Shown here one piece after another: positions 36,808 to 54,500 of a DNA stretch of 64,000 nt. A model generated the notes under the pieces. It made no database searches. It saw nothing but the letters and a program-made list of their open reading frames with translations, and was not told where the DNA came from. The position numbers were made by a program, and so were the translations under genes. The DNA is from a virus, in IMG/VR virus record IMGVR_UViG_3300036985_006427, positions 1-64,000 of that record. One strand, 5' to 3'. Every line of letters starts with the position of its first letter. Position 1 is the stretch's first letter.

Positions 36808-37344
36808 TTATCCGTATGGGTTCCAATTGACAGAAGTCCTAAAGGTAGAAATATATGGTATTGATATTACTCCCACTGGAAGAACTAGTTCATGATGAAT
36901 ATAGTTGTTGAATATGGTAAAATCTTCTATTTGTTTAGACCTTACATCTTCGCCATTAGAAAATCTACTTCTCTCAAGATTATAATGAAAAATGCCACTT
37001 TGCCTATTCTGATCGCATAAAACCCCATCTTCTGATGGATATGTTTTTAATATTCCTGAAGCATCCCACCAAGCGTCACTATAATAGTTGTTTATATCGC
37101 TGGCTTTATACTTTGCTTCTGTTTGTTCGTTGGGATATGGAAACGGTACATTTATCCCAGAGCCTCTGAAAGACGGTGCTTCTGATCTCATTCTGTGAGA
37201 TTGAGTAACGTCAAAACCGTTTGATTCTCCCGAAGGCAACAATCCAGAGACTGGCATTGCTTGTTGCTGTGAAGACAAAGGAAGGTTTGGACCTAACCCT
37301 GCGTCAAAAAAATCTGACCATTTAGGTTTATAAGCATGTGTCAT
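36808..37344 (-). CDS. Hypothetical virion protein (Ser-Gly-rich)
   Basis: Tightly packed in the tail operon. Confidence 0.6.
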   Translation of the reverse strand: MTHAYKPKWSDFFDAGLGPNLPLSSQQQAMPVSGLLPSGESNGFDVTQSHRMRSEAPSFRGSGINVPFPYPNEQTEAKYKASDINNYYSDAWWDASGILKTYPSEDGVLCDQNRQSGIFHYNLERSRFSNGEDVRSKQIEDFTIFNNYIHHELVLPVGVISIPYISTFRTSVNWNPYG

Positions 37345-37346
37345 GA

Positions 37347-39092
37347 TTAACGATCCAACTCATATGTCCAAGAGATATTGAATGAATAAGTGCCTTCTTT
37401 AGGATTCCAACTTTCGCTAGGAGGAGATATGAAATACTTTCTGACTCCGGGTTCATTCTTTGGACTAAGTTCGTTTATTAATCCAGCTATTTGACTAGCG
37501 GTTGGTTCAACAAGACTGGGTTTTTTCAATATCAATGTATTTCTTTTGTCTCCATATGCTATTTTTGTATAGTCCATAGTCAAGCTTATAGAAACATCCC
37601 TTTTATACTCTGTTCTTCCGCCTATATATTGTAGCACTGGACCAGTTGCTCTGCCAAGAACTGGAATGATCGCAAAAATATCTCCGGGATAAGTATCGTT
37701 GACCTGAATACTTTCAGCGATAACCCCTGATATTATATTTGTTGGTCTGTTGTTGAAGCTAAGATTATAAGATATATCTCCAGTGTATTGATTTGAACTC
37801 AAGCTCATGGAGACTGGCTGAGAATTAAGGGCAACTGCAACTAAATTATTAGCACGTTTATATATTGGACTGATCAATCCAAACCTTCCGCTGTTTGATA
37901 TTTCATTATATTTTGACAAAGCGTTTGCATACGCTCCGCTGACAGCGTTAAAATTTGCACTTCCAAGACCAGATCCATAAACTGGTGAAAAATTACGCAA
38001 ACCCTTTATCGCTCCATCTATTTGGACCGTAATGAAAGGATCGGTGTTTGATGTGGATGTAGATAAATTATAAACTTCATTTGCTTTTCCACTGCTCAAT
38101 ATCCAGTTTTCTGACACTGAGTATGTACCTTCAGTGACATTGATTTGCTCAGTTCTTACATGATTATAACCACCGTAAGAATTCACTAAATTGATAGTAC
38201 CAGAGCCTATTTGACCAATAATATTAGGATATTGTATGCCAGTTCCGCCACCGCTTAGTCTTTTCTGCACAAACCTTTTAGCTTGTTCCCAAGCTGGCAC
38301 ATTCAAGCTTCCAATGGCAGACGTTTGGTAATTGTAGCTTGTGCTTGCTGGTCCATAAACCGTTTTACCAGTAGCGCTCAGAGAATGAGATATTCTATAA
38401 GTTATGGGATTATCAACAGACTCACCAGTTTGGTCGTCTGCTTCGATACCCCAGTCTTCACTGTAAGTTTCGATAAACGCAGTATCTTGACTGCTGAGCA
38501 AGGCAGAAATGTTAGTGTCTGTGGCTCGAAGATCTCCATTAACAAATGTTCCTTCATAGTCTACATACTGGTCTGGATCGTCCCCTCGAAGTAGATAATC
38601 AGCTTCTAAAACTATCGTATACTCACACTTAGTGATATATTGACCTTCAGTAAAGTCAACACTAATAGTTCTTGGAAAACAAGTTATTGTAGCCCCAGCA
38701 TTATCGAGAATATCTGTTATTTCTACTCGTTGTCCATCTTGGGCAAACAAAGCTCTTAAAGCTCGCTGTTTGCTAAAAATAGCAGACTCTGGTTTATGAA
38801 CTTTTTGCTTGGGTGGTCTTGATCGTTGGGATGTAGGAACAGAGTCAAACTGGCCATACGGACCAACACCTGTAGGAGCAGCGTTTGCAAAAAAATCAAA
38901 CAGCGTATTTGTATCTGGACTTAATGCGTACGGTGTTCCTTCATTTGGCAGTAAACTACCAGTAAGGGTAATTGTATAGGTAACCCCAAAATTTCCCTCT
39001 TTATTTTTTAGAATAGACTCAGAAATTTGAACTAACGGTGTTGGACGCACAGTACAAATGTCAGTATTTTTGTAATAAACTTTTATTGGCAT
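37347..39092 (-). CDS. Putative distal-tail/tail-tip protein
   Basis: Repeated beta motifs (YTITLTG, YRISHSLSATG, ISYNLSF, YSFNISWTY); position in the tail module. Confidence 0.5.
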   Translation of the reverse strand: MPIKVYYKNTDICTVRPTPLVQISESILKNKEGNFGVTYTITLTGSLLPNEGTPYALSPDTNTLFDFFANAAPTGVGPYGQFDSVPTSQRSRPPKQKVHKPESAIFSKQRALRALFAQDGQRVEITDILDNAGATITCFPRTISVDFTEGQYITKCEYTIVLEADYLLRGDDPDQYVDYEGTFVNGDLRATDTNISALLSSQDTAFIETYSEDWGIEADDQTGESVDNPITYRISHSLSATGKTVYGPASTSYNYQTSAIGSLNVPAWEQAKRFVQKRLSGGGTGIQYPNIIGQIGSGTINLVNSYGGYNHVRTEQINVTEGTYSVSENWILSSGKANEVYNLSTSTSNTDPFITVQIDGAIKGLRNFSPVYGSGLGSANFNAVSGAYANALSKYNEISNSGRFGLISPIYKRANNLVAVALNSQPVSMSLSSNQYTGDISYNLSFNNRPTNIISGVIAESIQVNDTYPGDIFAIIPVLGRATGPVLQYIGGRTEYKRDVSISLTMDYTKIAYGDKRNTLILKKPSLVEPTASQIAGLINELSPKNEPGVRKYFISPPSESWNPKEGTYSFNISWTYELDR

Positions 39093-42000
39093 TTAATATC
39101 CTCTTACTCTTAAATTAAGAGCATTCGTTGTCTGAGTACTCGTCAGTGATAAATTCAAGGATTCTGAACTCTGCCCACTTGGAGCAGAGATAAACAGAGA
39201 TAATCCAGAAGGGTTCTCTCCGCTAGCAATCCCTAAAACACCAAAGTTATACAATCCTAATGTATTATACACATTTGCTCGATCTGGCCCCAACAACGAT
39301 AGGTTCATATCTCCAGACATAGCGACTGGTCTTCCGGAGGTTATCAAGTTGAATGAATTGTTGATTTCTGTACCCGGAAACAGTTCAAACTTTATGTTAT
39401 CGATGTATGGTCTATGAGCCACAAAACCCTTTGTTGATGGGTCAAAACCAGAAGCTTCTAAGAAAATGTCTCCATTTTTATTGCTAAACACTATGCCTGA
39501 AACTACATATTCTAATGAATCTCCAGATGAATTCTGGTACACCCTTAGGCCAACCCTGTCTGTTGATCCAGACTCTTGTTTGTTTCCAAACACATGAGCG
39601 TCTATCCAACCTCCGCTATTTTGTATAGAAGGAATCTGTTGTCTTAAAACACAGTCGAAGGTATAAGCAGCTCCAGCATTATTTAAACCTTTTGTTGGAT
39701 GATCTCCACTCGTTGGCCAATCGTGATTTGGAGAACCAGCAATCAATGTATAATCACTATCTCCTCTAAGTGGCCTATCTATACAAACGGAGGCTCCAAA
39801 GTTGTCATTGTCTGAACCACTAGCCGCCAATATTCCGGTTGTTAATGCGGTTTGAACTCTAGACTTGTAACCTACGGCAAGCATCTTTTCAGCAAATATC
39901 CATCTTTGTGTTCTTTCATTGAAGTTGACCATTTCGTTTCTATAGTTATAAACAGCACCATTGTTTAGAGTCATTGTTCCGCTGTTGTTGCCAAATGTAT
40001 TTACTCTGATTCCGGAATCGGCTAAATCGTAGAATGAATGTTTTGGAATATCAAACTTGGCGTCAAAACTCTTTCTCTGGAAGGCTGTAGATCCACTGTA
40101 GATATGGTGATGTAAAGTTTCAAACGAATGATTTGGAGCGCCCACAACGGCCATGTCGTAAGCTATATCAACTGAAAATCCAAATCTATCTCCACGGCGA
40201 GCGTATTCTGATATAAATGAAGAATCGTTTATTTGATGTGGACCTCTCAAACTTGTTAATTTCTGAGATGGAGTTGGAGAGAAATCGTAGATGCCAACAT
40301 TTATGCTGTTTGGCTTTATCTTTTGTTTGAACTCCCAAGGTAGAAACTCTTCTATTACATTTTTACCATTGTTTGTTTTCTCGAATATGAATGCAGCTCC
40401 AGCGCCTCCGTCTGCGCCTATTCTTATTCCAGATCTAGTTGCATCGTTTTTGATTTCATGCCACTGAACAATTCCACTGACACCGCTTATAGCTCCTTCT
40501 GAATGAAATGCGTTGTATGGTGTTCCAACTATAATTTTTCCATTGTCTATAGCGACAGAGTATCCGAATAAATCTCCCGGACATCCAGAGTTGAATAAAT
40601 CATAATCAAGATAGTCTGCGTTAGCTATCTTCATAAGCTCATTCAATCCGCCTCCGATACCGGCATCAACTATAAAGCTTCTGTTTGAATTTTTATCTAA
40701 TCCTAACAGGATATCATAATCGGTATAAATACCTCCATTGTAGGTTACAATATCCAAGAAGTCTCCACTGAACCTAGGGTACATTCCATATTTAGTGATA
40801 ACTTCATCGTTAAAGAAGCTTTTGGATCTTTGTTCCATTTCTTCTGAAGTTTTAAGTTCTGGTGGTCTAGATAGAGTTGTAGGATCGTACGTATCCTCGT
40901 TGTCAGAATAGTTGTTCAAATTACCAGCAACACCATTTCCTCCCCAAAGTCTAGAAGGAATCAAAGTAGCGCCAATAGCCTGACCGCTAACCGCAGCATA
41001 TTTAGCCGGAGAGCCTCGTTCAGGAGCGCGTAATTTCTGAGAAAGTTCCCAGTTTCTGCCTTCTTTTATTAGGGCAGTATCGTAAACCCCTCCTGATTGT
41101 AGTCTTCCTGCCCCGTTACCAATGTTGATGGTTTCGCCAGTATCGTTTGGACTCGGAGGATATAGATTTCTAACAAAGCTTTGGTTGCCAGTTATAGTCG
41201 TTGATCTATAATGAGGGCATTGACCTTGAAGCAAAGTTGAGTCTGCTATTAAAATGATTTTTGATCTTCTCTTGCCATTCTGGAACGATGAGAAGTTTTC
41301 AAACTCTTCTGCCACAATGACTGGTCCATCTTCTATCAATTCTTCAGCCCAGCTTTCAGACGCAGAAATACACTCATCTGTTGTGAAATTGTTTTCATCA
41401 CAGTAAATGGAACTCTTGTGTTTGACTGGTCTAGAAACACCCGGAACTACTCCGCTAGCTGCTGGATTCACAGCGTACCGGAAGTTGAATTGAACTGGAA
41501 GTCCATCGTTTATCAAACCGCTGGTTGTTATAGCATTGATTTCAGTAATGATTGGAAGCAACGCTCCAGAGATAGACAGCATTCTAGGAGTTTTAGGAGG
41601 CAATGAAATGCCTTCTAATTCTTTGACATCTATAAAACTAGACCATTTACTTGTTTGAAAAGTTATTCCAAACTCATCTATGTTGCTATTTGATTCTGTT
41701 CTAAATTCAAAAATGGTTTCCTGAGGAATATAGGTCGTTGTTTTGGTTAGCTCTCCAACGCTTCCACAGGCGAACGAAGGCAAACCTACGGGCGTATCAA
41801 ATATTAGATTTCCACTATGATTCGCGCATATTTTAAATTTTTCATCTGGAGACTCAGAGACCCAATTTATCCATACTCTGTATCCAGATCCGGGTAAAAT
41901 AGGGAAAGTAACAGCGCCTGCCCCGTTAATCTGCCAAGTGTTTTTAGCTCCATACACTTTATAGGTTTGTTTTATCTCTGGCAAGAAAGATAGTATTCTT

Positions 42001-45000
42001 TCAAAATCCTGCCCTCCTGATAATGGCACAAAGTTTGTTCTGCTTGCGTATGAAAACTCTTCACTTTGAGATGCAACGCTAATTGTAGCTGTGTTTGGAT
42101 GGAAATCTATTCCACTGAGACTTGTAGAGGTTTTGTAACTAGGATATGTGAAGTGATACCCATCATCACAACCGCTGATGCTGTCTGTTGCATAGTTTAT
42201 CAATTGTTTGTTGTCATTTTCTGTATATCTGCTCAACTTGTCTGACAAGTAATACTTGCCAAGTTTTGGTAAGTACATTGGCTTGCTTGTCATTCTCAGG
42301 CCACTGCAAAGATATGTAATATTATCAGATATTTCTTGAGCGGTACTATCTTTTACAGCACTGTAAGTTATAATTATCTTCTTGTTGCCAAAGTCAAGCC
42401 AGTCGTTTAGCGTCATTAAATCTTCACTCGAAGGTTTTCCAGACGGAAACGCCAACCACACAAAGTCTATGGAGCCGTTGACATATCTCATTTCACTGTT
42501 TTCTGTGAAAAATCCGCCATCAGGAAAAAATTCAACGTTTAATTTATTTGCTAAATTATGACCAGAGGCAGAATTTCCAGAAGAGTCATAAGCGTTCTTG
42601 AGAGATGTTCTTCCTGTAAAGCCATTTATCTGCAAACCCTTTGGGGCATACAAGCAATCTTTACGGATCATATTTATATAAAACTCTGTATTCTTATCTT
42701 TATTCAACGTGGCGTAACTAAGACCACGGCTAGCATCATCTTCACTCCACTGCGTAGCCAAGACATAAATGCGAGAATTATTAAATGATCCATCTGGTTT
42801 TCTTCCAGACTCCACAAGGGCTACTATCTGATCTGGGTAAACCGTTTCTGTGACATCAACAGCTTCAGATAAAATTTTACCAGCAGCTTGCATCAATCCG
42901 TCACGACCATTTTCAAGAGCAGGGTCGAACATATCTCCGTTATAATAAAATGAATTAAAGTTTCCACTAACAACCGATGGTCCATTTTCCATTATATGGA
43001 ACGCAAGTTCATTTATGTTGTTGGCAGCAAAAGATATCTTTTCTTCAAACTGCTTGTTGACTTTATAAACCTGTGGCTGAAAAGTATCCCATATCAATCC
43101 AGATGTAGCTGGATCGTACCAAGATGTTGGAGGCAAGTGTTCAGCGGTCGTCAAGACTGGCACGGGTTCTTCATTGCTTTTGTTGAACAACGATTGTGGA
43201 GGGCTATCACAATCGATAGTAAAGTTCTGGAACTGCAAAGGCCAGTTTTTATAATATGACACTACGCTACAAGTCTTTGGAGTTGTTTTTACGCACTGCT
43301 CTTTCCATTGGGCTCGTAAATCACCTACAATCCCTTTTAATGGAAATTCACATTTTGAATTTATAATTGGAGCAGGACCGTCACCGCAAGTAGCTCCTTC
43401 TGGGCAATTTAGATTTTCAAAAAATTCATCAAGATTATCTCTAGACAAATCTATACGAATATCGCCAACACCCTTGATATAATATTCTCCATGATGCTCA
43501 ATCGTTCTTCCAGTTGATCTATCTGGCAAGAAAGATTTAGTAGCATTGTATTTATTGCTAGAAACATCTTGTTGAGAAATGCATCCTTGAGCAGAATACT
43601 CAACATTACGCGCAGGATGTATTCTCATTCTGGAGCCTAATTTTTCCAGAATTTTGTTTACAATTTTATTTGAATCTTCATACAATCCATCTTCTTCCCA
43701 TACTGGGTCGTTGCCAACGATAACAAGATTTCTATCACCCAAAGACAACCAATCTTTGATGTTTTGAATAATTTCATCGCTTGCAGCATCTAGTTCTGGA
43801 GTGACAATAAACGCAAGACCAGCGTCTCTAGGAATTTCAATTTCAGAGAAATCAGTTCTTCTCCAAGATTTACCTTGATATCCAATCGTTCCGTTTGACC
43901 CAGAAGCGAAGATCAAAGGCCAATTAGAATTATCATAATAACCCAAAGCTCTTTCTTCAGGATGAGAAGATCTGTCAAGATTGCCAAACCTTCCAAACTC
44001 AACAACTTTGTTGTGAGGATAATATTTTCTGTTTTGGAATACTCTCACCGCTCCAGCATTTGTATATGAAGCCCAAGAGAGAATGTTATCACCCCAAACG
44101 TTAGCGTCTTCAAATTCGTTAAAGCAGTCTGTGGGTGCTCCGAACGCTACGGTTTCTCCGTCTTGGTCTACAGCACAGCTCCATCCGAGCCTCGACGTTG
44201 AAGCGAACGTAGATGGCAAGAACTGTCTGGTTCCTAAGTATTGAATATCATTGTGCCCATACTGATATGTCATTTTATAAGGGGTTGGCAGAGTTCCCCA
44301 GAAGTTGATATCATTTCTATATTCAAATCTTTCTGAGGATTGTATAAAGTCGTATGTAGACACTTTGGCTATAGCTTGTCCAGATTGAGACGCTATAGAA
44401 TCGTAATGACTGACAGCTTGCGGCTTGTTCGTGGAAACGCACCAGCTACGAATATTGTCGTAAACCTTCTGGGCTTCTTTTTCGTTTCGTTCAAAAATAT
44501 TACAAGATTTATCGTTCCACGGAGAACCGACTGCTACAACTTCTCCATTTTTACTTATAGAAACGGCGTGTCCAAACCTATCGTTGTATGTCTTGCTGTA
44601 TATCGAACCTAAACCATCCATACTGTCAAAGTTAAATTCTAACTTGTCGTTTGGAGACACAATGACTTGTATACAATTGAAAGTGTTTCTTTCTTTTTCA
44701 AATATATAAACTCTTCCGCCAGAGGCTGGTGGTACTTGAAATTCTGTTACAACAGACCCATGAGTAGAACCCCATTCTTGACCAACGCCACTTGCTATAA
44801 AGTTTCTGTTTAAAGTAGTGTTGGTGTATCCTGCGGACAATCTTCCGCTATCGAATGTATTTTCAAACAACTGCTTGCAAGTGGTATCCCATGTTTCAGA
44901 CTCTCCAGTGATCTTATTCAGATGACCACTTTGCGCAATGTTTTGGACAAGATCTTTGACTCCACTCGCATAAGAGTGAGCTAAATAAAACTTTTCAAAC

Positions 45001-48000
45001 TCATCATAGATGTTGATGACCACCCCATTGTTGCCGTATTGCAACGCTCCTTCAGTAGACCCTGTTTGTTCTTTGAAAAGACCAATGATAGCTGGTATTC
45101 CGCTATACACTGAGAATTCAGTAGAACCACTAGGAAACGCTTGGAAGAAAGCGGACTTTACTCCGCTGAGCATTTGATTGAACACAACTGGTCTTCCAGA
45201 AGCTATGAAATTTGCAGGAGATCCTAATCCACCAAGAACCCCTGAACCAGTATCAAGCAGTAATTCTAGGTCATCCAATCTAGGAATGTATTTGTGGACA
45301 AACCATGAAGACTCATCGGTTGGTATAACTGGATAATTTCTATTTGAATGAGTTAATTGTAGTACTATCAACTTAGGGTTGATTTGAGCGTACCATTCGT
45401 TTGGTCCGCTGTTCCAAGGTGCAGAGAAATATTTCCATAGTGTATTAAATTTTTGAGCTGTTGCAGCTACACTTTTCAGCTTTTCTTTTTCGTATTCAAA
45501 TAAGTCTGTAAATATGATTCCTGCCGTTGGAATGCCAGACACAGCAATGTCAGAGAAGCTTCTTGACCACTTGGCTCTTGGGGCACCCACAACCACAATC
45601 TCACGTTCACCACTAGAGCAAATATCTAAGGATTCTCCGAATTTTCTGCCTTCCTGTCCAATCTGCCATTTGTTTCCAGATATAGAGAATTGATCAAATC
45701 TAATTATATTTTCTTCTGTTCTTTGTATGTAATCTTTTCTGAAACCAGATGGTAACATCAACTGTTCAGCGTAAGACCATCCAGCCTTTTTGCCAGCTTG
45801 ATCAGAACCTCTTCTGTACAAGAATACAGATCCAGCTCCAGATACGTTCACTGTAGATTCGTCGTAAGGTGAATAATCTGAGATTGTAATGTTAGGAGCA
45901 GATATAGCCATCAAGTCATTGCTGACACGCACCTGTTGACCGTAATTATCATTTACGTTTCTGCCAGAAGCAGATATTAACTTCACACCTGAGAATACTA
46001 TGTTTTGATCACAATCTTCAGTGCAGCAACCGCTATTGTTTGGATACCAAGCTGGTCCACACATTCCGTATTCCCATTCTTCGAATGTTCTTGGAACAGG
46101 AATAGATTGATTAGAACCAGTTTTAATAACTAGCGTGGTCTTATAAGCAAGCGATGGCAATAGCTGATCAAACTTTCTTATTCCATAGTAATTTCCGCTA
46201 TATCCAAATCCACCTGCGAAATTAATTGCTCCAGAGTTTGTGTACGTATTCTTTGCTCTGAAGATGCCTCCATCATTGCATGTTTCTTGTCTCCACGTAA
46301 TGCCGTCAGTAACCAAAGCTTTATCTATAGCTTTGCTTGGACTGTCTCCTGTGCATGATCCATAACCTATTAAATCTACACCTCTGATTTCATTGTTTGC
46401 AGGCAGAAATGCAACATGATTGTCTGCAAGTTCTATTGGAGATCCATAGCTACTGCTGTTCCATACAGCCAAAGAAGATCCAAAATTAGAGCTATAGTTT
46501 GCTGTTACAAAATTTAGAGATCCAGTCAACAAGGATTTAACCAAAGGATTATGCACATACAAAGGCATAGATTGATTTATAATGTTTGGAGCGTTTATGT
46601 ACAAAGGCATAGAATGTGAGCGTCGTGTGGACACTCCTTGATTATGACCAACAATGGTCAATCCGATCACTCCACTGGCACTGCCTTTTTGTCTGTTCAA
46701 TTGCTGGTTATGTAAAAATAATGGCAATGAAGATAAAACGCCCACGTTTCCAGAAGAAGCGAATAGATTAAGATTTAATACTGGACCTTCTGGTTTACCT
46801 GCCAACTCTATATTGACCAGAGTCAATGGCATACCAAAGAAACTACCAACAGATGTATTTGGGTTTCCGTCATCTGATGTATCGAGCATACCTAAAACTT
46901 TAGGCATAGATAAAGACAAGCCGCTACTCAGCGATGTTGGTAATTCTCCGCTGATATTTAAATTAAAATAGCTGTATCCAGATTGAGGAGGTATAAATAG
47001 ATTCAATGAATTAGATTCAGTGAAAGCTCCACTTACATTCAAGAAAAATCCAGATGGATGATCTACTTCATTGAAGATATTATACGGTATAGGAACCTGA
47101 ACTATCAACGGTAGTATTCCACTGTTTTCTCTTGGGAAACCGCCAATGTTAAGATTGATTTGGCTAGAAGCCGGGAAAGCTCCACTAACATTCATATTGA
47201 ATGTGCCGGAAGAACCCAGTGCCAAAATATTAGCATCTACCATTCTCACATGAGAAGAGTGCATATCTATTCTAGATTCAAATGCTGGTCCAGAAGGATA
47301 AACCAGATCGTATTGAACGAACATTTGATTTACATCGTCTTTGAAATATCTTTCTGAAAAATCTTTTAACCTTGGTTCTTTTGGGAATACAGCCCAAGGC
47401 TCTGTTTCATCGATTAGATCTTCATAATCAAATGTAGATTCTAACTTAACAAAACAGCTAGACGGTTCGATGTAATGAATTTTTCTGTTTACCAATCCCC
47501 AATTCGGCTCTTCTGTTGTCCAATATGGGTCTTGTTTCTTTGTGTACAAGCTAACTATAAACTTTGGACCAGATGGAGCGATTGTTTCACAAGATGGCCA
47601 CTTTATTCCATCTCCAAATTTATGCTCAACAATAGTTTCTACAACGAGGGCTCGTTCAGAAAATTTATATCCAACTGGTATGCTCTTGGTTATTCTTCTG
47701 TTGACTGCGTAAAAATTATCCACAACGTCAGATAAATGAAATCTTAAAAAGTCATTTTCTATCTGAGTATGGTAAGCTACAGTGTTATCCACAGATGTTG
47801 GCAGCGTTATATTTGTCTTGTCTGAATATCCAATGCCATCGCTTTTCAAATTAAAGGAAATCAGATCACGACCTGTGCGTTTTGTCAAGAAGTCAAACGA
47901 AGCGTCAAATTGGCAATATTTAAAGTCACCTACGTGCCAATCATTGTGCGTATCTTCGTCAACGTTTTGCCATAATGTAAATCTATCGTTGGTGTGTGAT

Positions 48001-51000
48001 TCAGAAGGATTCCATAGTTTAACTCTTTGATTTGCTAAAAATACATCTGCACTAGTTTCTTTGAGTTGTAAATCTGGATCTGATTGGACTATTTTACAAC
48101 CAGACGCAAGACCAAACTCACTAACAAACATATTCATGCCAACACCAGAACCAGTAGAAAACCCTACTGTAACATCGCTGTCTCCGACATAGATATCAAA
48201 CGGAGTAGAAGTAGCACGCAATGTATTCCAAGGATAAGCAAATTCGTTGTCTGTATATAATTTTAATTCACTCAAATCCTTATCGTTATAAGTAAGAATA
48301 ACTGCAAGTGGATATTGATATTCTGAATAATGAGCAGTGTCAGTTATTTTAATGATATTTCCAGTTGTGCTCCGAGCTAAACCGCAGAGATAACCGTTTT
48401 CGTAAGATATAGCAAACTCTAATTGTCTTCCTCCATGAGCATTGTGGAGACCCCATTTAGACACAAGTACTCCGCTATTAAATAAATTATAACCAACACC
48501 GCTTACATTTACGTCTGGTGTAAATTTAATATAAGAAACAAATCCATCGGAAGTATCTAAAGAATGATTAAAATCAATATAAGAGTTTTGTCCGCTAATT
48601 CTTACTATGTTGTTAAAAGCATCTGAAATCTGACCGTATAGCTGATCACTTGTAAAATTAGCCGCTCCATTGCTTAAAGACGTCCAGTCGGTAGTTTGGT
48701 AAGAGGTACTATAACCCGGCAACTGATTGTTGAATATTGTAGGGTTAGTAAATCTCCAACCAATGTTTTTATATCTATATTGACCATTACCATAAGTTGT
48801 GTGTAAAACACCGCCATTTCCGGTGTTATTGTGTGGATTTATTGTATGACCATCATCATAATCAAAATCATAAAAACCAAAATTAAATGGAGAATCTAAC
48901 AATGGATTATAGAATGAAAAACCAAACATGTTGGGATGGAAATCCCCTTGTGTTAGACCTTCCATTCCTTTCCATCTTCGAGCGTAGTTGGTTCTTATTG
49001 TATTTGGTGAACCATAAGCATGGGGAATGTTTTGTATTCTAGATATTGGCCCATATCCAGATCCAGCGTTGAGTACGCTATCATAAGATTGCATACCAGA
49101 AGGATACAAAGCGGCTTCAGATCTTCCGTCTTGAGTTTTGCCAAACTTCTCTCCACCCTGAGTGTACAGATTTATAGCATTAGCAGGAGCATATCTCACG
49201 CACAATTCGGCGTATCCAATAGCTGCACCGCTTGGCAATGGGAATATATCAAGGTATACATTTTCTAAGAAAGAGCTAAGACTATAATCTCTAGACAACC
49301 CCAGCTTTACTTTATCGTCAAGTATAACCAAAGGTATTTCATAAAGTTGAAAACCCGTACTGTTAACAACTGGGTATTGAGACAATCTATAATGATCGTT
49401 TCCGCTTGATTCAAAGTAAGTGTCATTTTCAGACAATGAACCACCACCGATTGTTCTGTCTGAATCACCTCGGTAAAATCCAGACAGCACAGGGTAGTTG
49501 CCAATGTTAGAAACGAAAGTGTCATTCAAGAAAATTCCAGATGGATCTTGAATAAATCCGCCAGACGGAGGTGTTACAAACAATAAATCGTCGTTGCTGT
49601 ACCCTACAACGTCCAAGATATAATCTCGGCTACCAACCTGTTTCTTAGCAAGAACTTTGAGTGTTAGAGATTCAACGTTATAAAAACAAATATCTTCTTG
49701 AATATTTTCAATACGTTTTTCTACACTGAATGCTCCAGTTGGTTTCCACCATGTTGTGTTTGTCCCTTGATCAAATGAGAAGTTAAAATCACCATTTGTA
49801 ATTTCATCTACTTTGTTGTATCCGGTTTGAAACTTTAAAATCAACTTTCCAGAATTCGCTATGTTTCCACCGCTGGTTGATTGCAATTTGATGAATCTAT
49901 CGGCATTTTTAACATTCAATATATTTATTAATTCTTTAGAGCCACAAACGTCTTGATTTGTTGCTCCTATTGGATATCCAGCAGTTATCGTTGTGTCATC
50001 TGCCCATACATTGTTGTTGACAGAAGGATAAATGGTTGTATCGTACGTATTGATAGCTATGAACGTTGGATTGATGCTTCTCTCTAGCCTTCGTCCAATT
50101 TCTCTCACAGGTATGCGGAATGGTAAATAATTCTCTAACCTTGGACCATACCCGCCACTGTTGCAAATTTCTACTGCTGATATTCTGAATCCTCTGGTAG
50201 GATTTATAAATCTTGTTTCATTGCTTGATAAAGGTTGTCCATCAATCGCCAAGTAGCTGTTGCCATTGTTGCTAAGTATCTCTGGAATAATATAATTTTC
50301 TTCAAAACCATCATCGAAACCCTTGTTGAAGGGATCGTCTAATGAGACAGCTCTTACGCTAAAAGACAATTGATATCCACTCACCTTATGCATATGAGGA
50401 ATGGTTCGCTGCCAGTCGTATTTTTCATTTATAACATTTATTTGAGGAAGAGATGAATACGTAGTAAAGTTAGAGTATTCTTCTGTGGAATCGCCTCTCA
50501 TCTGAATGTCATTGTATTTAACTATCAAATTTCCAGATGGGTCAGATAATTTAATGTTATATAATGTATACAGGGGTGGAAGTTTAGACTCATAATTATA
50601 CAGAGGTGTTGCTACTCTTATTCTAAAAGAAGAGCGTTCAGGTCTGACATACATATCAGTAAGTTCGCACTTGTACTGAAAAAGACCCTCTGTATGAAAA
50701 GTGTTTGGTTCAATGTAGGAGTTTTTGTCATCAGACAATAAGTTGGAATCTCCACGATCTTTCAAGACGCCTTCATAAATACCTTCATCTATATTGGACC
50801 ATAAGTTTGTTGACTCTAAAGACGGTCCAGCAAAAGTTCCAAACCCACTGTCTATCGGCAGATCGTTTGATGGATACAGTTTGCCTTGACAGTAAAAGTC
50901 CCCAAAATCACCCGCTACCTTGTCTGTTATTGTGTTTATGATATTAGCTTCGCCGGTTATCACTTGTGACAATACATAGCTAGCCTTGATGCTGTTGAGA

Positions 51001-51569
51001 ATATCTGACGAACCTATGATTTCTGACACAAGGCTTATGTAAGAACTAAAAATAGTTGATATGTCAGCTACACCAACAATACTTGCTCCTCCAACAGACT
51101 TAGCGGTCACCATGTTCGGAGCGGTGGCGTTAGCGTATCCAAAAACACTTGGATCTACAGCAGGAGGATTGCTCAGCAAGCCAAGGTTTGGACCGTCATA
51201 AAAAAATAAAACTGATCCATTTTCGAATTTTTGGATCACATTGGATGAAATCTTGACAAACTGATTTGGAGAAACTTCATACGACAACTCTATATTCCAG
51301 CCTTCATCGATAAGATCTTTGTACTGACAGGTGTTTGCAGAACATCCAGATAGAGTGTATAATGGTCCACTTCCAGCCAATGAATTTTTATCGAAATAAA
51401 CAATTATTTGCTGTGGAGGCGCTGCTATTTTAGAAAACGTATTGAATGAGGCTGATAAAGCAGCTTCATTGAGTGTCATTGTAGCAAGAAGCTCACCTCC
51501 TCCGGGACAGGTGGCTGAGGTTCCTTTTATACAACAACATTCCAAACTCTTCAAGAACGGTTCTGACAT
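39093..51569 (-). CDS. Giant virion/adhesin protein (4158 aa) with a LamG-like domain and seven FG-GAP repeats
   Basis: FG..V/L...GAP...G.VY/AF repeats; LamG-like segment at about 48100-48600; directly after the TMP. Confidence 0.75.
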   Translation of the reverse strand: MSEPFLKSLECCCIKGTSATCPGGGELLATMTLNEAALSASFNTFSKIAAPPQQIIVYFDKNSLAGSGPLYTLSGCSANTCQYKDLIDEGWNIELSYEVSPNQFVKISSNVIQKFENGSVLFFYDGPNLGLLSNPPAVDPSVFGYANATAPNMVTAKSVGGASIVGVADISTIFSSYISLVSEIIGSSDILNSIKASYVLSQVITGEANIINTITDKVAGDFGDFYCQGKLYPSNDLPIDSGFGTFAGPSLESTNLWSNIDEGIYEGVLKDRGDSNLLSDDKNSYIEPNTFHTEGLFQYKCELTDMYVRPERSSFRIRVATPLYNYESKLPPLYTLYNIKLSDPSGNLIVKYNDIQMRGDSTEEYSNFTTYSSLPQINVINEKYDWQRTIPHMHKVSGYQLSFSVRAVSLDDPFNKGFDDGFEENYIIPEILSNNGNSYLAIDGQPLSSNETRFINPTRGFRISAVEICNSGGYGPRLENYLPFRIPVREIGRRLERSINPTFIAINTYDTTIYPSVNNNVWADDTTITAGYPIGATNQDVCGSKELINILNVKNADRFIKLQSTSGGNIANSGKLILKFQTGYNKVDEITNGDFNFSFDQGTNTTWWKPTGAFSVEKRIENIQEDICFYNVESLTLKVLAKKQVGSRDYILDVVGYSNDDLLFVTPPSGGFIQDPSGIFLNDTFVSNIGNYPVLSGFYRGDSDRTIGGGSLSENDTYFESSGNDHYRLSQYPVVNSTGFQLYEIPLVILDDKVKLGLSRDYSLSSFLENVYLDIFPLPSGAAIGYAELCVRYAPANAINLYTQGGEKFGKTQDGRSEAALYPSGMQSYDSVLNAGSGYGPISRIQNIPHAYGSPNTIRTNYARRWKGMEGLTQGDFHPNMFGFSFYNPLLDSPFNFGFYDFDYDDGHTINPHNNTGNGGVLHTTYGNGQYRYKNIGWRFTNPTIFNNQLPGYSTSYQTTDWTSLSNGAANFTSDQLYGQISDAFNNIVRISGQNSYIDFNHSLDTSDGFVSYIKFTPDVNVSGVGYNLFNSGVLVSKWGLHNAHGGRQLEFAISYENGYLCGLARSTTGNIIKITDTAHYSEYQYPLAVILTYNDKDLSELKLYTDNEFAYPWNTLRATSTPFDIYVGDSDVTVGFSTGSGVGMNMFVSEFGLASGCKIVQSDPDLQLKETSADVFLANQRVKLWNPSESHTNDRFTLWQNVDEDTHNDWHVGDFKYCQFDASFDFLTKRTGRDLISFNLKSDGIGYSDKTNITLPTSVDNTVAYHTQIENDFLRFHLSDVVDNFYAVNRRITKSIPVGYKFSERALVVETIVEHKFGDGIKWPSCETIAPSGPKFIVSLYTKKQDPYWTTEEPNWGLVNRKIHYIEPSSCFVKLESTFDYEDLIDETEPWAVFPKEPRLKDFSERYFKDDVNQMFVQYDLVYPSGPAFESRIDMHSSHVRMVDANILALGSSGTFNMNVSGAFPASSQINLNIGGFPRENSGILPLIVQVPIPYNIFNEVDHPSGFFLNVSGAFTESNSLNLFIPPQSGYSYFNLNISGELPTSLSSGLSLSMPKVLGMLDTSDDGNPNTSVGSFFGMPLTLVNIELAGKPEGPVLNLNLFASSGNVGVLSSLPLFLHNQQLNRQKGSASGVIGLTIVGHNQGVSTRRSHSMPLYINAPNIINQSMPLYVHNPLVKSLLTGSLNFVTANYSSNFGSSLAVWNSSSYGSPIELADNHVAFLPANNEIRGVDLIGYGSCTGDSPSKAIDKALVTDGITWRQETCNDGGIFRAKNTYTNSGAINFAGGFGYSGNYYGIRKFDQLLPSLAYKTTLVIKTGSNQSIPVPRTFEEWEYGMCGPAWYPNNSGCCTEDCDQNIVFSGVKLISASGRNVNDNYGQQVRVSNDLMAISAPNITISDYSPYDESTVNVSGAGSVFLYRRGSDQAGKKAGWSYAEQLMLPSGFRKDYIQRTEENIIRFDQFSISGNKWQIGQEGRKFGESLDICSSGEREIVVVGAPRAKWSRSFSDIAVSGIPTAGIIFTDLFEYEKEKLKSVAATAQKFNTLWKYFSAPWNSGPNEWYAQINPKLIVLQLTHSNRNYPVIPTDESSWFVHKYIPRLDDLELLLDTGSGVLGGLGSPANFIASGRPVVFNQMLSGVKSAFFQAFPSGSTEFSVYSGIPAIIGLFKEQTGSTEGALQYGNNGVVINIYDEFEKFYLAHSYASGVKDLVQNIAQSGHLNKITGESETWDTTCKQLFENTFDSGRLSAGYTNTTLNRNFIASGVGQEWGSTHGSVVTEFQVPPASGGRVYIFEKERNTFNCIQVIVSPNDKLEFNFDSMDGLGSIYSKTYNDRFGHAVSISKNGEVVAVGSPWNDKSCNIFERNEKEAQKVYDNIRSWCVSTNKPQAVSHYDSIASQSGQAIAKVSTYDFIQSSERFEYRNDINFWGTLPTPYKMTYQYGHNDIQYLGTRQFLPSTFASTSRLGWSCAVDQDGETVAFGAPTDCFNEFEDANVWGDNILSWASYTNAGAVRVFQNRKYYPHNKVVEFGRFGNLDRSSHPEERALGYYDNSNWPLIFASGSNGTIGYQGKSWRRTDFSEIEIPRDAGLAFIVTPELDAASDEIIQNIKDWLSLGDRNLVIVGNDPVWEEDGLYEDSNKIVNKILEKLGSRMRIHPARNVEYSAQGCISQQDVSSNKYNATKSFLPDRSTGRTIEHHGEYYIKGVGDIRIDLSRDNLDEFFENLNCPEGATCGDGPAPIINSKCEFPLKGIVGDLRAQWKEQCVKTTPKTCSVVSYYKNWPLQFQNFTIDCDSPPQSLFNKSNEEPVPVLTTAEHLPPTSWYDPATSGLIWDTFQPQVYKVNKQFEEKISFAANNINELAFHIMENGPSVVSGNFNSFYYNGDMFDPALENGRDGLMQAAGKILSEAVDVTETVYPDQIVALVESGRKPDGSFNNSRIYVLATQWSEDDASRGLSYATLNKDKNTEFYINMIRKDCLYAPKGLQINGFTGRTSLKNAYDSSGNSASGHNLANKLNVEFFPDGGFFTENSEMRYVNGSIDFVWLAFPSGKPSSEDLMTLNDWLDFGNKKIIITYSAVKDSTAQEISDNITYLCSGLRMTSKPMYLPKLGKYYLSDKLSRYTENDNKQLINYATDSISGCDDGYHFTYPSYKTSTSLSGIDFHPNTATISVASQSEEFSYASRTNFVPLSGGQDFERILSFLPEIKQTYKVYGAKNTWQINGAGAVTFPILPGSGYRVWINWVSESPDEKFKICANHSGNLIFDTPVGLPSFACGSVGELTKTTTYIPQETIFEFRTESNSNIDEFGITFQTSKWSSFIDVKELEGISLPPKTPRMLSISGALLPIITEINAITTSGLINDGLPVQFNFRYAVNPAASGVVPGVSRPVKHKSSIYCDENNFTTDECISASESWAEELIEDGPVIVAEEFENFSSFQNGKRRSKIILIADSTLLQGQCPHYRSTTITGNQSFVRNLYPPSPNDTGETINIGNGAGRLQSGGVYDTALIKEGRNWELSQKLRAPERGSPAKYAAVSGQAIGATLIPSRLWGGNGVAGNLNNYSDNEDTYDPTTLSRPPELKTSEEMEQRSKSFFNDEVITKYGMYPRFSGDFLDIVTYNGGIYTDYDILLGLDKNSNRSFIVDAGIGGGLNELMKIANADYLDYDLFNSGCPGDLFGYSVAIDNGKIIVGTPYNAFHSEGAISGVSGIVQWHEIKNDATRSGIRIGADGGAGAAFIFEKTNNGKNVIEEFLPWEFKQKIKPNSINVGIYDFSPTPSQKLTSLRGPHQINDSSFISEYARRGDRFGFSVDIAYDMAVVGAPNHSFETLHHHIYSGSTAFQRKSFDAKFDIPKHSFYDLADSGIRVNTFGNNSGTMTLNNGAVYNYRNEMVNFNERTQRWIFAEKMLAVGYKSRVQTALTTGILAASGSDNDNFGASVCIDRPLRGDSDYTLIAGSPNHDWPTSGDHPTKGLNNAGAAYTFDCVLRQQIPSIQNSGGWIDAHVFGNKQESGSTDRVGLRVYQNSSGDSLEYVVSGIVFSNKNGDIFLEASGFDPSTKGFVAHRPYIDNIKFELFPGTEINNSFNLITSGRPVAMSGDMNLSLLGPDRANVYNTLGLYNFGVLGIASGENPSGLSLFISAPSGQSSESLNLSLTSTQTTNALNLRVRGY

Positions 51570-51573
51570 TTTG

Positions 51574-54500
51574 TTAACCTAATACAGAGTTAGTTTTCTT
51601 TAAATCACCGGATGTGTTTGTCTTAAACTGCGATATTTGTTTTCCTACTTCGGTCAACAATTCTTGCTTTATGTCTTCTTTCATTGTTTCTAAGAAAGAA
51701 GCTCCATTAAAGTTAACATTGATATTCGTTGTATCTAAAGCTACTTGGAATTTACTTCCTATAAGCTTGTCTACGGTCGCAGCGAAATTATTGAATATAG
51801 TTGTTAACTGTGGTATCGCTGCACTGAATGCGCTGCCTACACCATCTACCGCTCCTCCAACGTTATAATATCGAGCTTTACCTCCACCGCTCATTGCTCC
51901 GGGAGCACTCGCTCCACCACCTTTGTTCATAGCTTGTAGTATCTGTAAATTATTGCCACGTTGAACTGACGATCTGTTGACCACAAATTCTCCCGGAGTC
52001 AACATAGCCGGAACGGTATCTGTTCCACGCGGAACGAACATTCCTCTGTTCGCATAAACTGGACCTCCTCTGTAAAGACCCGGAGGAGCAGGTGCCGCAG
52101 CAGGTGCTTGAGCTGGAGCAGCAGCAGCGCCACCTAAAGCTTGGTTTAATTGTTTGCCAATGTCTCCAATTGTAAGTTCTTGAGCATAAACAATTGCTTG
52201 TTTAGTATTAACTTCTGCTCTTTCAAATTCGGCTGCTTGTTGACCAAGTTGACCAAGTGTTGTCGCTAATTCTCTACCTTCAGCTTTCTTAGCTTGCTCT
52301 TCGGTTGTTGTGCCAGATAGTACACCCGTTGATTGAACTCCGAAACGTTGCAGCGTTAAATCTTCTGCTCTTCTTTTTTTATCATCCGATAAGCCTTGTC
52401 CCTCAAGGGTTTTGAAACCAGCTCCCAACGCTGAACCACTAAACAAACTAGTCAAAGCAGAGCTTCCGCTCGCTAGTGCAGCACCAGCTCCAGCAGCCGC
52501 TTGTTTTTCTAAAAACCCTTCTATGTCACCGCTTATGAGTGATTCGAGAGAATCCTTTTCTGCTTGATTTTTTCTTTGAATTAATTGAAGTTCTTCTTTT
52601 CTAGCTTCAATTTCTTGTTTTGTTTGTGAGATTAAATCTTGTTGTAACGCTTTCAGTCTTTCTCTAGTGTCTTCTTCCGCTCCAGCGCCACCAGAAAAAG
52701 CTCTTTCTCCAGACACTGCGCCAGCTCTAGCTCTTTCTTCTAGTTGTAAGAATTGATTGCTAATATCAGCGGATACGCTTTGAATATCACCAGCGTTGCC
52801 AGTTTGAAGACCACGCACACCAACAGCCTCAGCGCCAACATTGAAGCTTGCAACTCTAGCTTGTTGTTTTTCGCCTGCTGTTAAAGCTTTACCACCAAAC
52901 TCTTCAAAGATCTTGCCAGCCTCTAGTTGTAATTCTATAGCCCTTCTTTGTGCTGCTACATATTCTTGTTCAGATGCTATACGTTGTTGAATTCCCTTGA
53001 TCAGTAATTGCTCTGCCTCTGAGCGTTTTTGAAGAACACCAAGAACTTCTTTGTTGAATGCATCACTAGTTTTTTGCAATGCTTCTCTTAATGGACCAAA
53101 ATTTCCAGCTTGAATTTCAGCAAGATCTTCTCCGTTAAACTTAGAGCTTGCTTCGTCAAGACCAGCATTAATTCTTGTTGCCACTTCAGGATCTAATCCG
53201 GCGGTCAATTCTTCACTGAGTATCCTTGATATTTCTTGTGGAGTTGCTCCCGCCGGTCCTTTTTCCGTTAATTTCTTTTGTATGTTTGCAAAAGAATCTG
53301 AATCTTTATTTAGTCTAGAAAAGGCAGTGTTGAAACCTTTAGCTGCACCACTCGCGTTACCTATGGCAGCCTCACTAGCTCCAGCTTCACGCAAAGTACC
53401 TTCTAGTGTTGCAATGGCTCCATCTAATTCCTTTGCTGACAAAGTGCCAGCAGCGCTAGTCAATGCGGTCTGTAAGATATCTAATGAATCACCAAACTTA
53501 TCTCCAACCTGATCTATAGTTAATAATTTCGATAATTTTTTGTTTGTAGCATCCAATGAATCAGAAAGTGTTCCAAGGCCAAAGTTAGTAGCTTTGATAA
53601 GAGCTAATTGTCTTATGGCTTGCTCTTTAGCGGCTTTCAAAGACTGTTTACCAGCTTCTTCTCTTTGTTTTTCAAATCCTCTAATTTTAATTTCTTGTTG
53701 TTCAAGATCTGAAAATACTCTGGCTCCCGGTCCTTGTGATTGCTGCACATTTGCGTCAATTCTAGCTTGCTCTGCTGGAGAAAATTGTGAAGTAGTAGCA
53801 GCTTTAAATGCTGAATTATCGGTAACAGTCCTTTCAGCTTCGTCCGCCGTTGCTCCTCTCATGATCTGATCCGCAAGAACATTACCAAACATTGGTAATT
53901 GTTCCATAAATGCAGTAGTAGCTTTTTCTTGGTCTGGAATTTGTTCTTTCAAAGCTTCGGCTCTTTTTTTGTCGTTAGACTTATCCAATTGCCCCTGAAG
54001 CATACTGCCAACCAAAGCACCCAAAGGACCAGCAATAGCTAATCCAGCCATAGTTGAGGCTCCTTCCAGAGCCCAGAATGAATTATTAACATCTTCAATT
54101 CTTGAATTGCTCAAAGCTATGGATTGTGCAAGAACACCAAACTCATTGTTTAAATTACCAGTTAAATTGCCTTTCGTAAATTCATCGGTTAAAGTGCTAG
54201 ATCCAGACTCTACACGTTGCATAGCCATAGCGACATCGTTGGCGTTTTTAGAAGCTTCGTTTTCCTGTTTCTTTCTGGCGGCAGCTAATCTAGCTTCTTG
54301 TTTAACTGTATCTGTACTTGGACCTAATCCAAAGAATGCTAAAGTTTTTCTAAAGGCATTTAATGGTCCTTCTAACAGCCCAAACGCATCAGCTAATTTA
54401 AGACCAATCGCAACAATACCAATCGTAACACCAACTAGCACACCTAATGGTCCACTGACAGCAATTAAAACACCAGCTAAAATTCCAAGAGCTATAGTTA

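What the first reader, a model, noticed from the sequence alone, without database searches (positions are those of the whole stretch)
36808..51569. Ser-Gly dipeptide enrichment in selected structural proteins: a possible glycosylation sequon
Approximate hand counts of SG: about 90 in the 4158-aa protein, 5 in the 178-aa protein, 7 in the 249-aa protein (26660..27409), 7 in the 395-aa tail tube and 7 in the 581-aa protein. The 1695-aa protein has only about 4 and the 1403-aa protein about 6. The typical context is [A/S/V/P/N]-S-G-hydrophobic (ASGI, VSGA, PSGF, NSGI). The selectivity suggests a signal beyond composition. Established: Ser-Gly is the O-xylosylation site of animal proteoglycans. 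Inference: SG marks acceptor sites for the adjacent glycan cluster.
Basis: partly seen in the sequence, partly recalled or inferred. Interest (0 to 1): 0.8.

Follow-up and report, generated by a model that had tools for sequence, protein, structure and literature searches.

The report
Conserved Ser-Gly pairs in phage appendages
The giant tail protein of this uncultured aquatic phage, and a few of its fibre proteins, carry about 2.5 times more Ser-Gly pairs than chance at strictly conserved positions; these look most like a lineage-specific way of building turns and caps, and nothing yet shows that the phage's sugar enzymes use those serines.

Summary
The counts are right and the excess is real. 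The 4158-aa protein has 92 SG against 36.9 expected (z about 10), while GS is at expectation. SG is by far the most deviant of the 400 dipeptides. The signal lies in the protein, not the DNA.

About 50 homologues (25-94% identity) all share the excess (median O/E 2.36). It comes entirely from conserved columns: 38 SG, against 4 GS and 1 TG.

The 178-aa family is even richer (O/E 4.26). The 249-, 395- and 581-aa proteins sit near the baseline of unrelated phages (about 1.35) and are not individually significant.

The sequon reading is neither shown nor refuted. Every relative carries glycosyltransferases, so no GT-less control exists. No protein-specific glycosyltransferase was recognised. The flanks are not acidic as in proteoglycans.

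For a structural role:
- Gly is more conserved than Ser.
- Ser is replaced by Thr, Asn, Asp, Gln or Glu.
- Pro or Ala precedes the pair, and a strand-like pattern follows.
- In one FG-GAP blade slot, unrelated proteins use Asp-Gly where this family uses Ser-Gly.

Best reading: cap-plus-glycine structural elements (about 0.5). Glycan acceptor: about 0.25.

The scan has already noted this signature in at least 40 other genomes.

The parts
39093..51569 (-). 4158-aa giant tail protein directly downstream of the tape measure gene. It contains FG-GAP blades, an inserted alpha/beta domain and short NL/PLFI-type repeats. It is the main carrier of the SG excess.
   Evidence: SG 92 against 36.9 expected, GS 38. 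Pfam FG-GAP_2 hit at E 6e-22. Fifty homologues have O/E 1.6-3.0. There are 38 conserved SG columns. AF2 models were made of residues 1420-2300 and 3560-4158.
36808..37344 (-). 178-aa protein of unknown function with five conserved SG sites.
   Evidence: 5 SG against 1.5 expected. Family total 106 against 24.9, O/E 4.26. The sites align in 16 homologues of 31-55% identity. No Pfam, PHROG, PDB or Atlas match.
37347..39092 (-). 581-aa protein with only a mild SG excess.
   Evidence: 7 SG against 4.9 expected, p 0.2. Family O/E 1.44, GS 1.11. 5 of 27 conserved G columns are preceded by S.
51574..59952 (-). 2792-aa tape measure protein, near baseline.
   Evidence: Pfam PhageMin_Tail hit at E 2e-22. 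SG 30 against 19.8 expected. Family O/E 1.14.
31706..36793 (-). 1695-aa tail protein, SG-poor. Serves as an internal negative control.
   Evidence: 4 SG against 10.8 expected. Family O/E 1.08. Only 4 of 40 conserved G columns are preceded by S.
27465..31676 (-). 1403-aa tail protein, SG-poor.
   Evidence: 6 SG against 9.9 expected.
26660..27409 (-). 249-aa Gly-rich protein with a nominal SG excess.
   Evidence: 7 SG against 2.8 expected, p 0.014, not significant after correction for 41 ORFs.
62442..63629 (-). At baseline.
   Evidence: 7 SG against 3.9 expected, p 0.08. No Pfam or PHROG hit.
589..24289 (+). Glycan-synthesis block holding GT2, GT8, GT4/GT1, GT11 and DUF5672 genes, two NAD-dependent epimerase/dehydratase-family enzymes and several methyltransferases. 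Replication genes are interspersed at 5323-9218.
   Evidence: Pfam hits. NCBIfam gives only generic similarities, all far below cut-off. The proteins of this block have SG O/E 1.00.

Best explanation
The Ser-Gly pairs are conserved structural elements. A small polar residue caps the end of a strand or helix through its side-chain oxygen. The following glycine takes the left-handed or flexible backbone conformation needed to turn the chain, as in a type-I turn with G1 bulge, a helix N-cap or C-cap, or a beta-solenoid rung corner.

This clade's appendage proteins fill that slot almost exclusively with Ser, where other proteins use Asp, Asn or Thr. The proteins concerned are the giant FG-GAP tail protein, the 178-aa protein and, outside the window, the fibre and spike-like proteins.

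Shown: the excess, its restriction to conserved columns, the substitution spectrum and the flanking pattern. Inferred: the actual backbone geometry and hydrogen bonds. The reason Ser is preferred remains unknown.
For: 1. Gly is more conserved than Ser: 88% against 77% in the close set. Where the pair is broken, G is usually the residue kept: TG 31, NG 13, EG 13, DG 8.
2. Replacements of the Ser are T 46, N 39, D 23, Q 21 and E 19, with A only 11. That is about 71% oxygen-bearing polar residues, against about 46% at other Ser positions. This is the equivalence class of capping residues.
3. Flanks: hydrophobic at -3, P/V/A at -1, and hydrophobic at +1, +3 and +5 after the Gly. This reads as strand, turn, strand.
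4. All of the excess sits in conserved columns (38 SG against 4 GS). Rare columns are equal (469 SG against 498 GS), so there is no ongoing gain of sites.
5. In the motif-defined FG-GAP blade slot xG..D-FG-SV, 36 unrelated FG-GAP proteins have D in 51% and S in 6%. The giant family has S in 67%.
6. In the 1563-aa fibre outside the window, SG sits inside recurring YadA-head-like repeat units.
7. Virion proteins of four unrelated phages, among them lambda, which has no known glycan cluster (established knowledge), already show SG 1.35 against GS 1.05. Lambda J reaches 1.86 and the MaeS tail fibre 2.65.
8. In the confident parts of the AF2 models, 15 of 26 SG lie in loops and 5 of 7 helix-associated ones lie at helix termini.
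Against: 1. The sites do not share one structural context. They occur in loops, strand interiors and mid-helix. Several different motifs would therefore all have to prefer Ser.
2. The conserved unit is exactly two residues. The flanks are at average conservation (0.52-0.59 against a mean of 0.55). Ser, normally among the most mutable residues (0.49), reaches 0.78. This is unusual for a mere cap.
3. The FG-GAP fold does not explain the excess: 36 unrelated FG-GAP proteins have SG 1.29 and GS 1.28.
4. Unrelated folds in the same virion share the habit, while the other large tail proteins (1695 and 1403 aa) and the probable capsid- and portal-like families (0.50 and 0.39; roles assigned by gene position only) do not. 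This would be natural if a trans-acting factor read the motif.
5. Compensation for Asn-Gly avoidance fails as an explanation. NG is equally low in SG-rich and SG-normal virion proteins.
6. No atomic coordinates were available, so Gly phi angles, Ser hydrogen bonds and burial were not measured.
Confidence: 0.5

Rival explanations
1. The serines of the SG pairs are acceptor sites for O-glycosylation by the phage's own cytoplasmic glycosyltransferases. The appendages would then leave the cell coated with a fucose-containing, methylated glycan. This can coexist with a turn location, as in the heptosylated beta-helix autotransporters.
For: A block of about 20 kb holds about 12 GT-like genes, epimerase/dehydratase-family enzymes and methyltransferases beside the tail genes. 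A Gmd homologue lies among the packaging genes. A DUF5672 gene lies inside the fibre cluster. A core of 3-4 GT-B genes is present in 10 of 10 complete relatives that also carry the SG-rich giant protein. The signal is Ser-specific, a two-residue island, independent of context, and shared by unrelated appendage folds. The probable capsid- and portal-like families are depleted. Non-virion proteins are at 1.00. Phage virion glycosylation has a precedent in mycobacteriophages (Freeman et al. 2023, as cited in PMC12619734). Cytoplasmic hyper-glycosylation of serines in repeat proteins has a precedent in TibC/TibA (PMC4358343).
Against: No GT with a recognisable protein-substrate domain or protein-GT family was found; the hits are generic and far below cut-off. 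TG is not enriched (0.83). A third of the replacements at the Ser are N or D, which cannot be O-glycosylated. There is no excess of young SG sites of the kind glycan shields usually show. A two-residue sequon gives no specificity, yet the phage's own cytoplasmic proteins do not avoid SG (1.00). Some sites are predicted mid-helix or in strands. The GT co-occurrence is one lineage-wide trait, not independent evidence. The GT cluster could instead act on DNA or on host envelope glycans.
Confidence: 0.25
2. SG is read by some other trans-acting factor. This could be a different modification such as phosphorylation or acylation, or an assembly chaperone shared by the appendage proteins.
For: The same two-residue island appears in unrelated folds of one virion, and some other virion proteins are depleted. 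Glu, Asp and Gln are over-represented among replacements of the Ser. That pattern is reminiscent of sites that exchange with acidic residues.
Against: No kinase, acyltransferase or dedicated chaperone candidate was identified in the ORFs scanned. The hypothesis makes no specific prediction that could be tested here.
Confidence: 0.1
3. The excess is a by-product of composition, local Ser/Gly-rich stretches, tandem repeats or a DNA-level motif.
For: The proteins are rich in S (10%) and G (9%). The 1563-aa fibre does have repeat units that contain SG.
Against: GS is at 1.03. Window-restricted shuffles reach at most 57, against 92 observed. The pattern is in frame only: 92 against 6 and 14. Both Ser codon families are used, and 24 of 38 conserved columns switch between them. 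SG spacing in the giant protein is irregular. The sites are conserved down to 25% identity.
Confidence: 0.02

Closest known systems
Capping-residue plus left-handed glycine motifs of protein structure: type-I turn with G1 beta-bulge, Schellman helix C-cap, and Ser/Thr/Asp/Asn N-caps (established structural knowledge, recalled rather than computed here)
   Same: Small polar residue followed by Gly. Pro or Ala often comes just before. S, T, N and D are interchangeable. Gly is the more conserved partner. The pair sits at the ends of strands and helices.
   Different: These motifs normally use Asp or Asn at least as often as Ser. Here 40 of 136 conserved glycines follow a Ser, against only 3 after Asp and 6 after Asn. 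The bias is limited to a subset of virion proteins.
Autotransporter heptosyltransferases (BAHT: TibC, AAH) acting on TibA and AIDA-I (PMC4358343)
   Same: Cytoplasmic hyper-glycosylation of many serines on a repeat-rich, beta-structured adhesin, by an enzyme encoded next to its substrate.
   Different: No GT9-like or iron-finger enzyme was found in the ORFs scanned. The giant protein is not a regular beta-helix. The acceptor motif of BAHTs was not checked here. No chemistry exists for the phage.
Mycobacteriophage virion glycosylation (Freeman et al. 2023, known here only through its citation in PMC12619734)
   Same: Phage-encoded glycosyltransferases decorating virion proteins.
   Different: There the glycans sit at the C-termini of the capsid and tail-tube subunits. 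Here the candidate sites are spread through appendage proteins, and the probable capsid family is SG-depleted.
Ser-Gly xylosylation sites of animal proteoglycans
   Same: The dipeptide Ser-Gly.
   Different: The animal sites lie in acidic, often repeated SGxG contexts in secreted proteins and are made by Golgi enzymes. The phage sites have Pro, Ala or Val before and a hydrophobic residue after. No xylosyltransferase-type family was hit.
FG-GAP / integrin-alpha-type beta-propeller repeats
   Same: Pfam FG-GAP_2 hit at E 6e-22. AF2 shows blades with an inserted alpha/beta domain. There are weak Foldseek matches to integrin alphaX/alphaM (E about 1e-3).
   Different: Unrelated FG-GAP proteins show no SG>GS bias (1.29 against 1.28). 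They use Asp where this family uses Ser.

Membership tests
Protein O-glycosylation system with an SG sequon | Acceptor motif over-represented beyond composition, and direction-specific | tested here: met
   SG O/E 2.49 against GS 1.03 in the giant protein. Family median 2.36 against 1.08.
Protein O-glycosylation system with an SG sequon | A glycosyltransferase of a type known to act on proteins, or one carrying a protein-binding domain | tested here: inconclusive
   Only generic GT2, GT4, GT8, GT11 and DUF5672 hits were found. The SdgB-like score is 26 bits against a cut-off of 800.
Protein O-glycosylation system with an SG sequon | Motif enrichment tracks presence of the enzymes across independent lineages | tested here: inconclusive
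   GT1-family genes are present in 28 of 30 related records and in 10 of 10 complete ones. GT2 genes are present in 25 of 30. No GT-less relative exists to compare with.
Protein O-glycosylation system with an SG sequon | Acceptor serines exposed to solvent | tested here: inconclusive
   Only DSSP strings are available. In confident regions 15 of 26 sites are in loops, 3 in strands and 6-7 in helices. No coordinates were available for accessibility.
Protein O-glycosylation system with an SG sequon | Glycan chemically attached to the serine | not testable with these tools
   The clade is uncultured: no match among 50,697 cultured-phage records.
Proteoglycan-type xylosylation site | Acidic residues flanking Ser-Gly | tested here: not met
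   Position -1 is enriched for P, A and V. Position +1 is enriched for V, I and C. Only a 2-fold Asp enrichment is seen, at -4.
BAHT-type autotransporter heptosylation | GT9-like heptosyltransferase gene beside the substrate | tested here: not met
   No heptosyltransferase family appeared among the Pfam or NCBIfam hits of the window's ORFs. The genome record is probably incomplete, so absence is not proven.
Cap-plus-glycine turn motifs | Gly at least as conserved as the polar residue, and the polar residue exchangeable with T, N or D | tested here: met
   G 88% against S 77%. Replacements are T 46, N 39, D 23 and A 11.
Cap-plus-glycine turn motifs | Location at strand or helix ends, with positive-phi Gly and a side-chain-to-backbone hydrogen bond | tested here: inconclusive
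   The flanking hydrophobic alternation and the loop or terminus positions agree. Backbone angles and hydrogen bonds could not be measured.
FG-GAP repeat proteins (for the giant protein) | Match to the family profile above its cut-off | tested here: met
   PF14312 scores 77.9 bits against a cut-off of 23. A profile of the C-terminal region also finds multi-FG-GAP proteins.

The most novel reading that the evidence does not exclude
This abundant, uncultured clade of 150-175-kb aquatic phages runs its own cytoplasmic protein O-glycosylation system. The system would use the bare Ser-Gly pair at turns and caps of appendage proteins as acceptor. The giant integrin-like tail protein alone would then carry dozens of phage-made, fucose-containing, methylated glycans.
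Probability: 0.22. Interest if true: 0.8.

Novelty: new variant of a known kind. Interest (0 to 1): 0.45.

Why it matters
If the pairs are only structural, the result is a curiosity of protein design. A whole phage clade would have standardised on Ser-Gly for turns and caps in its external appendages, which is useful as a recognition signature for these proteins in metagenomes.

If the serines are modified, this would be a phage-encoded virion glycosylation system with a defined minimal acceptor, in a widespread aquatic phage group. That would bear on host recognition, particle stability and the purpose of the large glycosyltransferase clusters seen in many big phages.

The present evidence does not decide between the two readings. 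It does narrow the experiment to 38 conserved sites and a core of 3-4 conserved glycosyltransferases.

Tried and rejected
1. DNA-level motif or codon artefact. Rejected: the pattern is in frame only, and both Ser codon families are used.
2. Local Ser/Gly-rich composition. Rejected by window-restricted shuffles.
3. Tandem-repeat origin in the giant protein. Rejected because the spacing is irregular. It is partly true for the 1563-aa fibre.
4. A general property of the FG-GAP fold. Rejected: controls have SG 1.29 and GS 1.28.
5. Ser substituting for deamidation-prone Asn before Gly. Rejected as an explanation of the selectivity: NG is equally low (0.74-0.81) in SG-rich and SG-normal virion proteins.
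6. GT co-occurrence test. Uninformative, because all relatives carry GTs.
7. Family, structure and database searches:
   - Pfam gave only FG-GAP_2 for the giant protein and nothing for the 178-aa protein.
   - PHROGs found nothing for either.
   - PDB sequence searches gave only insignificant hits for the giant protein and nothing for the 178-aa family.
   - The ESM Atlas gave no usable hit for the 178-aa protein.
   - Cultured-phage searches with a giant-protein segment found nothing.

8. Foldseek on the AF2 model gave only weak matches to integrins and alpha/beta hydrolases.
9. AF2 failed on the NL/PLFI repeat regions, with pLDDT below 50. Half of the SG-dense stretch at 1420-1870 could therefore not be mapped.
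10. Enrichment of SG near secondary-structure boundaries. By eye, roughly half of all modelled positions lie near a boundary, so the test has no power.
11. The Freeman 2023 paper is not held in the library.


Full report
**What the window is.** The window is the first 64 kb of a 109,965-bp virus record.
- It encodes a split DnaE, an exonuclease and endonuclease VII. A block of about 20 kb holds glycosyltransferases (GT2, GT8, GT4/GT1, GT11, DUF5672), two epimerase/dehydratase-family enzymes and several methyltransferases.
- On the minus strand lies a long tail module: a 2792-aa tape measure (PhageMin_Tail), then the 4158-aa protein, then proteins of 581, 178, 1695, 1403 and 249 aa.
- No cultured phage is related at the DNA level or through the giant protein. 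The terminase is only 22-26% identical to those of Microcystis phage MaeS and Bacillus phages.
- IMG/VR holds hundreds of related contigs. Complete relatives are 150-174 kb, two of them with terminal repeats, so this record is probably a fragment.

**The observation.**
- All hand counts were reproduced.
- The 4158-aa protein has 92 SG against 36.9 expected from its own composition (O/E 2.49, shuffle z = 10.1). GS is 38 (O/E 1.03).
- SG is the most deviant of all 400 dipeptides (Poisson z 9.1; the next is 3.3). Shuffling within 20-, 40- or 100-residue windows never exceeds 57.
- The DNA pattern encoding SG occurs 92 times in frame, against 6 and 14 times in the other sense frames.
- TCT, AGT and AGC all contribute. 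In 24 of 38 conserved columns, homologues use both serine codon families. The signal is therefore selected at the amino-acid level.
- SG spacing is irregular, so the excess is not a tandem-repeat effect.

**Which proteins carry it.**
- In the window only the giant protein is individually compelling.
- The 178-aa protein (5 against 1.5) becomes convincing at family level: 106 against 24.9 in 16 homologues, with five aligned SG sites.
- The 249-, 395- and 581-aa proteins have p = 0.014, 0.08 and 0.2 among 41 ORFs tested.
- The 1695- and 1403-aa proteins are SG-poor at 0.37 and 0.61. The 1695-aa family is at 1.08.
- Outside the window, several fibre- or spike-like proteins are enriched: a 1563-aa fibre (64 against 28.7), a 324-aa protein (11 SG, 0 GS), a 533-aa protein (family 2.33) and a Gp80-like 162-aa protein (family 3.30).
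- The 335-aa and 671-aa families, probably capsid and portal by position, are depleted at 0.50 and 0.39.
- Proteins of the replication and glycan block are at exactly 1.00.

**Baselines.**
- Thirty virion proteins of lambda, T5, Microcystis phage MaeS and Bacillus phage Basilisk give SG 1.35 and GS 1.05. Lambda J is at 1.86 and the MaeS tail fibre at 2.65. A mild SG>GS bias is thus ordinary in phage tail proteins, including lambda, which has no known glycan cluster (established knowledge). The giant protein lies about 1.8-fold above this baseline.
- Thirty-six unrelated multi-FG-GAP proteins, found with a profile of the C-terminal region, give SG 1.29 and GS 1.28. The fold itself is therefore not the cause.

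**Conservation.**
- Two scans of IMG/VR returned about 50 full-length or near full-length homologues of 25-94% identity. All are enriched: O/E 1.62-2.98, median 2.36, with GS 1.08 and TG at or below expectation.
- In a 12-sequence alignment, the Ser of SG is 77% identical against 44.5% for other serines. The Gly of SG is 88% identical against 74%.
- In a 38-sequence alignment there are 38 SG columns kept in at least 60% of sequences, against 4 GS, 1 TG, 2 NG and 4 DG. Rare columns are equal (469 SG, 498 GS). The whole excess is therefore old and positionally fixed, with no sign of turnover or recent gain.
- Forty of 136 conserved glycines follow a conserved serine. The residues on either side of the pair are at the protein's average conservation, which makes the pair a two-residue island.
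- The same analysis gives 4 of 40 for the 1695-aa family and fewer than 3 of 66 for the tape measure.

**Context and substitutions.**
- Upstream, position -3 is hydrophobic and position -1 is enriched for Pro, Val and Ala. Downstream, positions +1, +3 and +5 after the Gly are hydrophobic. This is the pattern of a strand following a tight turn.
- Where the pair is broken, the Gly is usually kept (TG 31, NG 13, EG 13, DG 8). The Ser is replaced by T 46, N 39, D 23, Q 21 and E 19, and rarely by A (11). This is the exchange group of hydrogen-bonding cap residues. It is not the pattern expected if only a hydroxyl would do.

**Structure.**
- AF2 with 38-sequence alignments gave confident models only for residues about 1870-2300 and parts of 3615-4050. 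These show beta-propeller blades with an inserted alpha/beta domain. The NL/PLFI-type repeat regions stayed below pLDDT 50.
- Of the 26 SG in confident regions, 15 are in loops, 3 are in strands and 6-7 are helix-associated. Five of the helix-associated ones lie at helix ends. There is no single structural context, and accessibility could not be computed because no coordinates are returned.
- Foldseek found only weak similarity to I-domain integrins and alpha/beta hydrolases.
- In the recurring blade element xG..D-FG-SV, unrelated FG-GAP proteins have Asp before the Gly in 51% of cases and Ser in 6%. The giant family has Ser in 67%. At least here, SG fills an existing structural slot.

**The glycosylation idea.**
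- The adjacency is real. GT1-family genes occur in 28 of 30 related records and in all 10 complete ones, and GT2 genes in 25 of 30. DUF5672 occurs in 9 of 30. This genome has one copy in the glycan block and one inside the fibre cluster. Because the whole clade shares both traits, this co-occurrence counts as one event and tests nothing.
- No enzyme resembles a known protein O-glycosyltransferase beyond generic GT4 similarity. The 562-aa GT has only viral GT neighbours in the Atlas.
- The proteoglycan analogy fails on the acidic context.
- A two-residue sequon would give no specificity, yet the phage's cytoplasmic proteins do not avoid SG.
- Three features would be natural for a motif read in trans: the two-residue island, its independence of structural context, and its sharing by unrelated appendage folds while the probable capsid and portal families are depleted. 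TibC/TibA shows that cytoplasmic hyper-glycosylation of serines on repeat adhesins exists (PMC4358343).

**An idea that failed.** Ser might replace deamidation-prone Asn before Gly. NG is indeed low in the giant family (0.71). It is equally low in SG-rich and SG-normal virion proteins of this phage (0.81 and 0.74), against 1.07 in non-virion proteins. NG avoidance therefore does not explain the selective SG excess.

**Verdict.**
It is not individually confirmed for the three smaller proteins.
- The most likely reading (about 0.5) is a clade-specific, strongly conserved use of Ser-Gly as a cap-plus-glycine element in appendage proteins.
- Use of those serines as glycan acceptors remains possible (about 0.25) and is untested.
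- The scan has recorded the same signature in at least 40 other genomes, with similar open verdicts. Those notes are not independent evidence.

Noticed in passing
whole record (G000, 109,965 bp): Relatives judged complete are 150-174 kb, two of them with direct terminal repeats. This record is therefore probably about two thirds of a genome.
   Followed up: partly
L002:5271-6278 (-) and L002:8336-10351 (-), genome 85271-86278 and 88336-90351: The 335-aa and 671-aa families, probably capsid and portal by position, are depleted in SG (O/E 0.50 and 0.39) while GS is 1.36 and 1.18. This is the opposite of the fibre proteins. The sequences are related, so the totals are not independent.
   Followed up: partly
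virion block, window 26660-64000 and beyond: Asn-Gly is under-represented in virion proteins (0.74-0.81) but not in non-virion proteins (1.07). Pro-Gly is low throughout the phage, at 0.33-0.40.
   Followed up: partly
window 9318-11006, 14445-15425 and homologues in 30 related records: A core of 3-4 GT-B genes, with products of about 330, 355-375 and 560 aa, is conserved in all complete relatives, down to those whose giant protein is only 25-30% identical.
   Followed up: partly
L001:9873-10490 (-), genome 72873-73490: A second DUF5672 gene (E 4e-21) sits inside the fibre gene cluster, next to a BppU_N-domain protein.
   Followed up: no
window 44670-45960 (-), giant protein residues about 1870-2300: AF2 gives beta-propeller blades with an inserted alpha/beta domain (pLDDT 65-94). 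The best Foldseek matches include I-domain integrins alphaX/alphaM at E about 1e-3.
   Followed up: partly
window 46500-47220 (-) and 39096-39360 (-), giant protein residues about 1450-1690 and 4070-4158: Short degenerate repeats of the type SG-x-x-(L/M)-N-L and (M/L)-P-L-(F/Y)-(I/V) are conserved in the family, but AF2 does not model them (pLDDT below 50).
   Followed up: no
L001:12020-12460 (-) and L002:4656-5144 (-): Two proteins match Pfam Gp80 (podophage GP4 fibre I protein; E 3e-21 and 2e-24). Each lies just upstream of a fibre-like gene.
   Followed up: no
window 59980-61270 (-): ORFs of 125 and 306 aa overlap by 8 bases directly upstream of the tape measure. This is the usual place of the tail assembly chaperone pair. 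Not examined.
   Followed up: no
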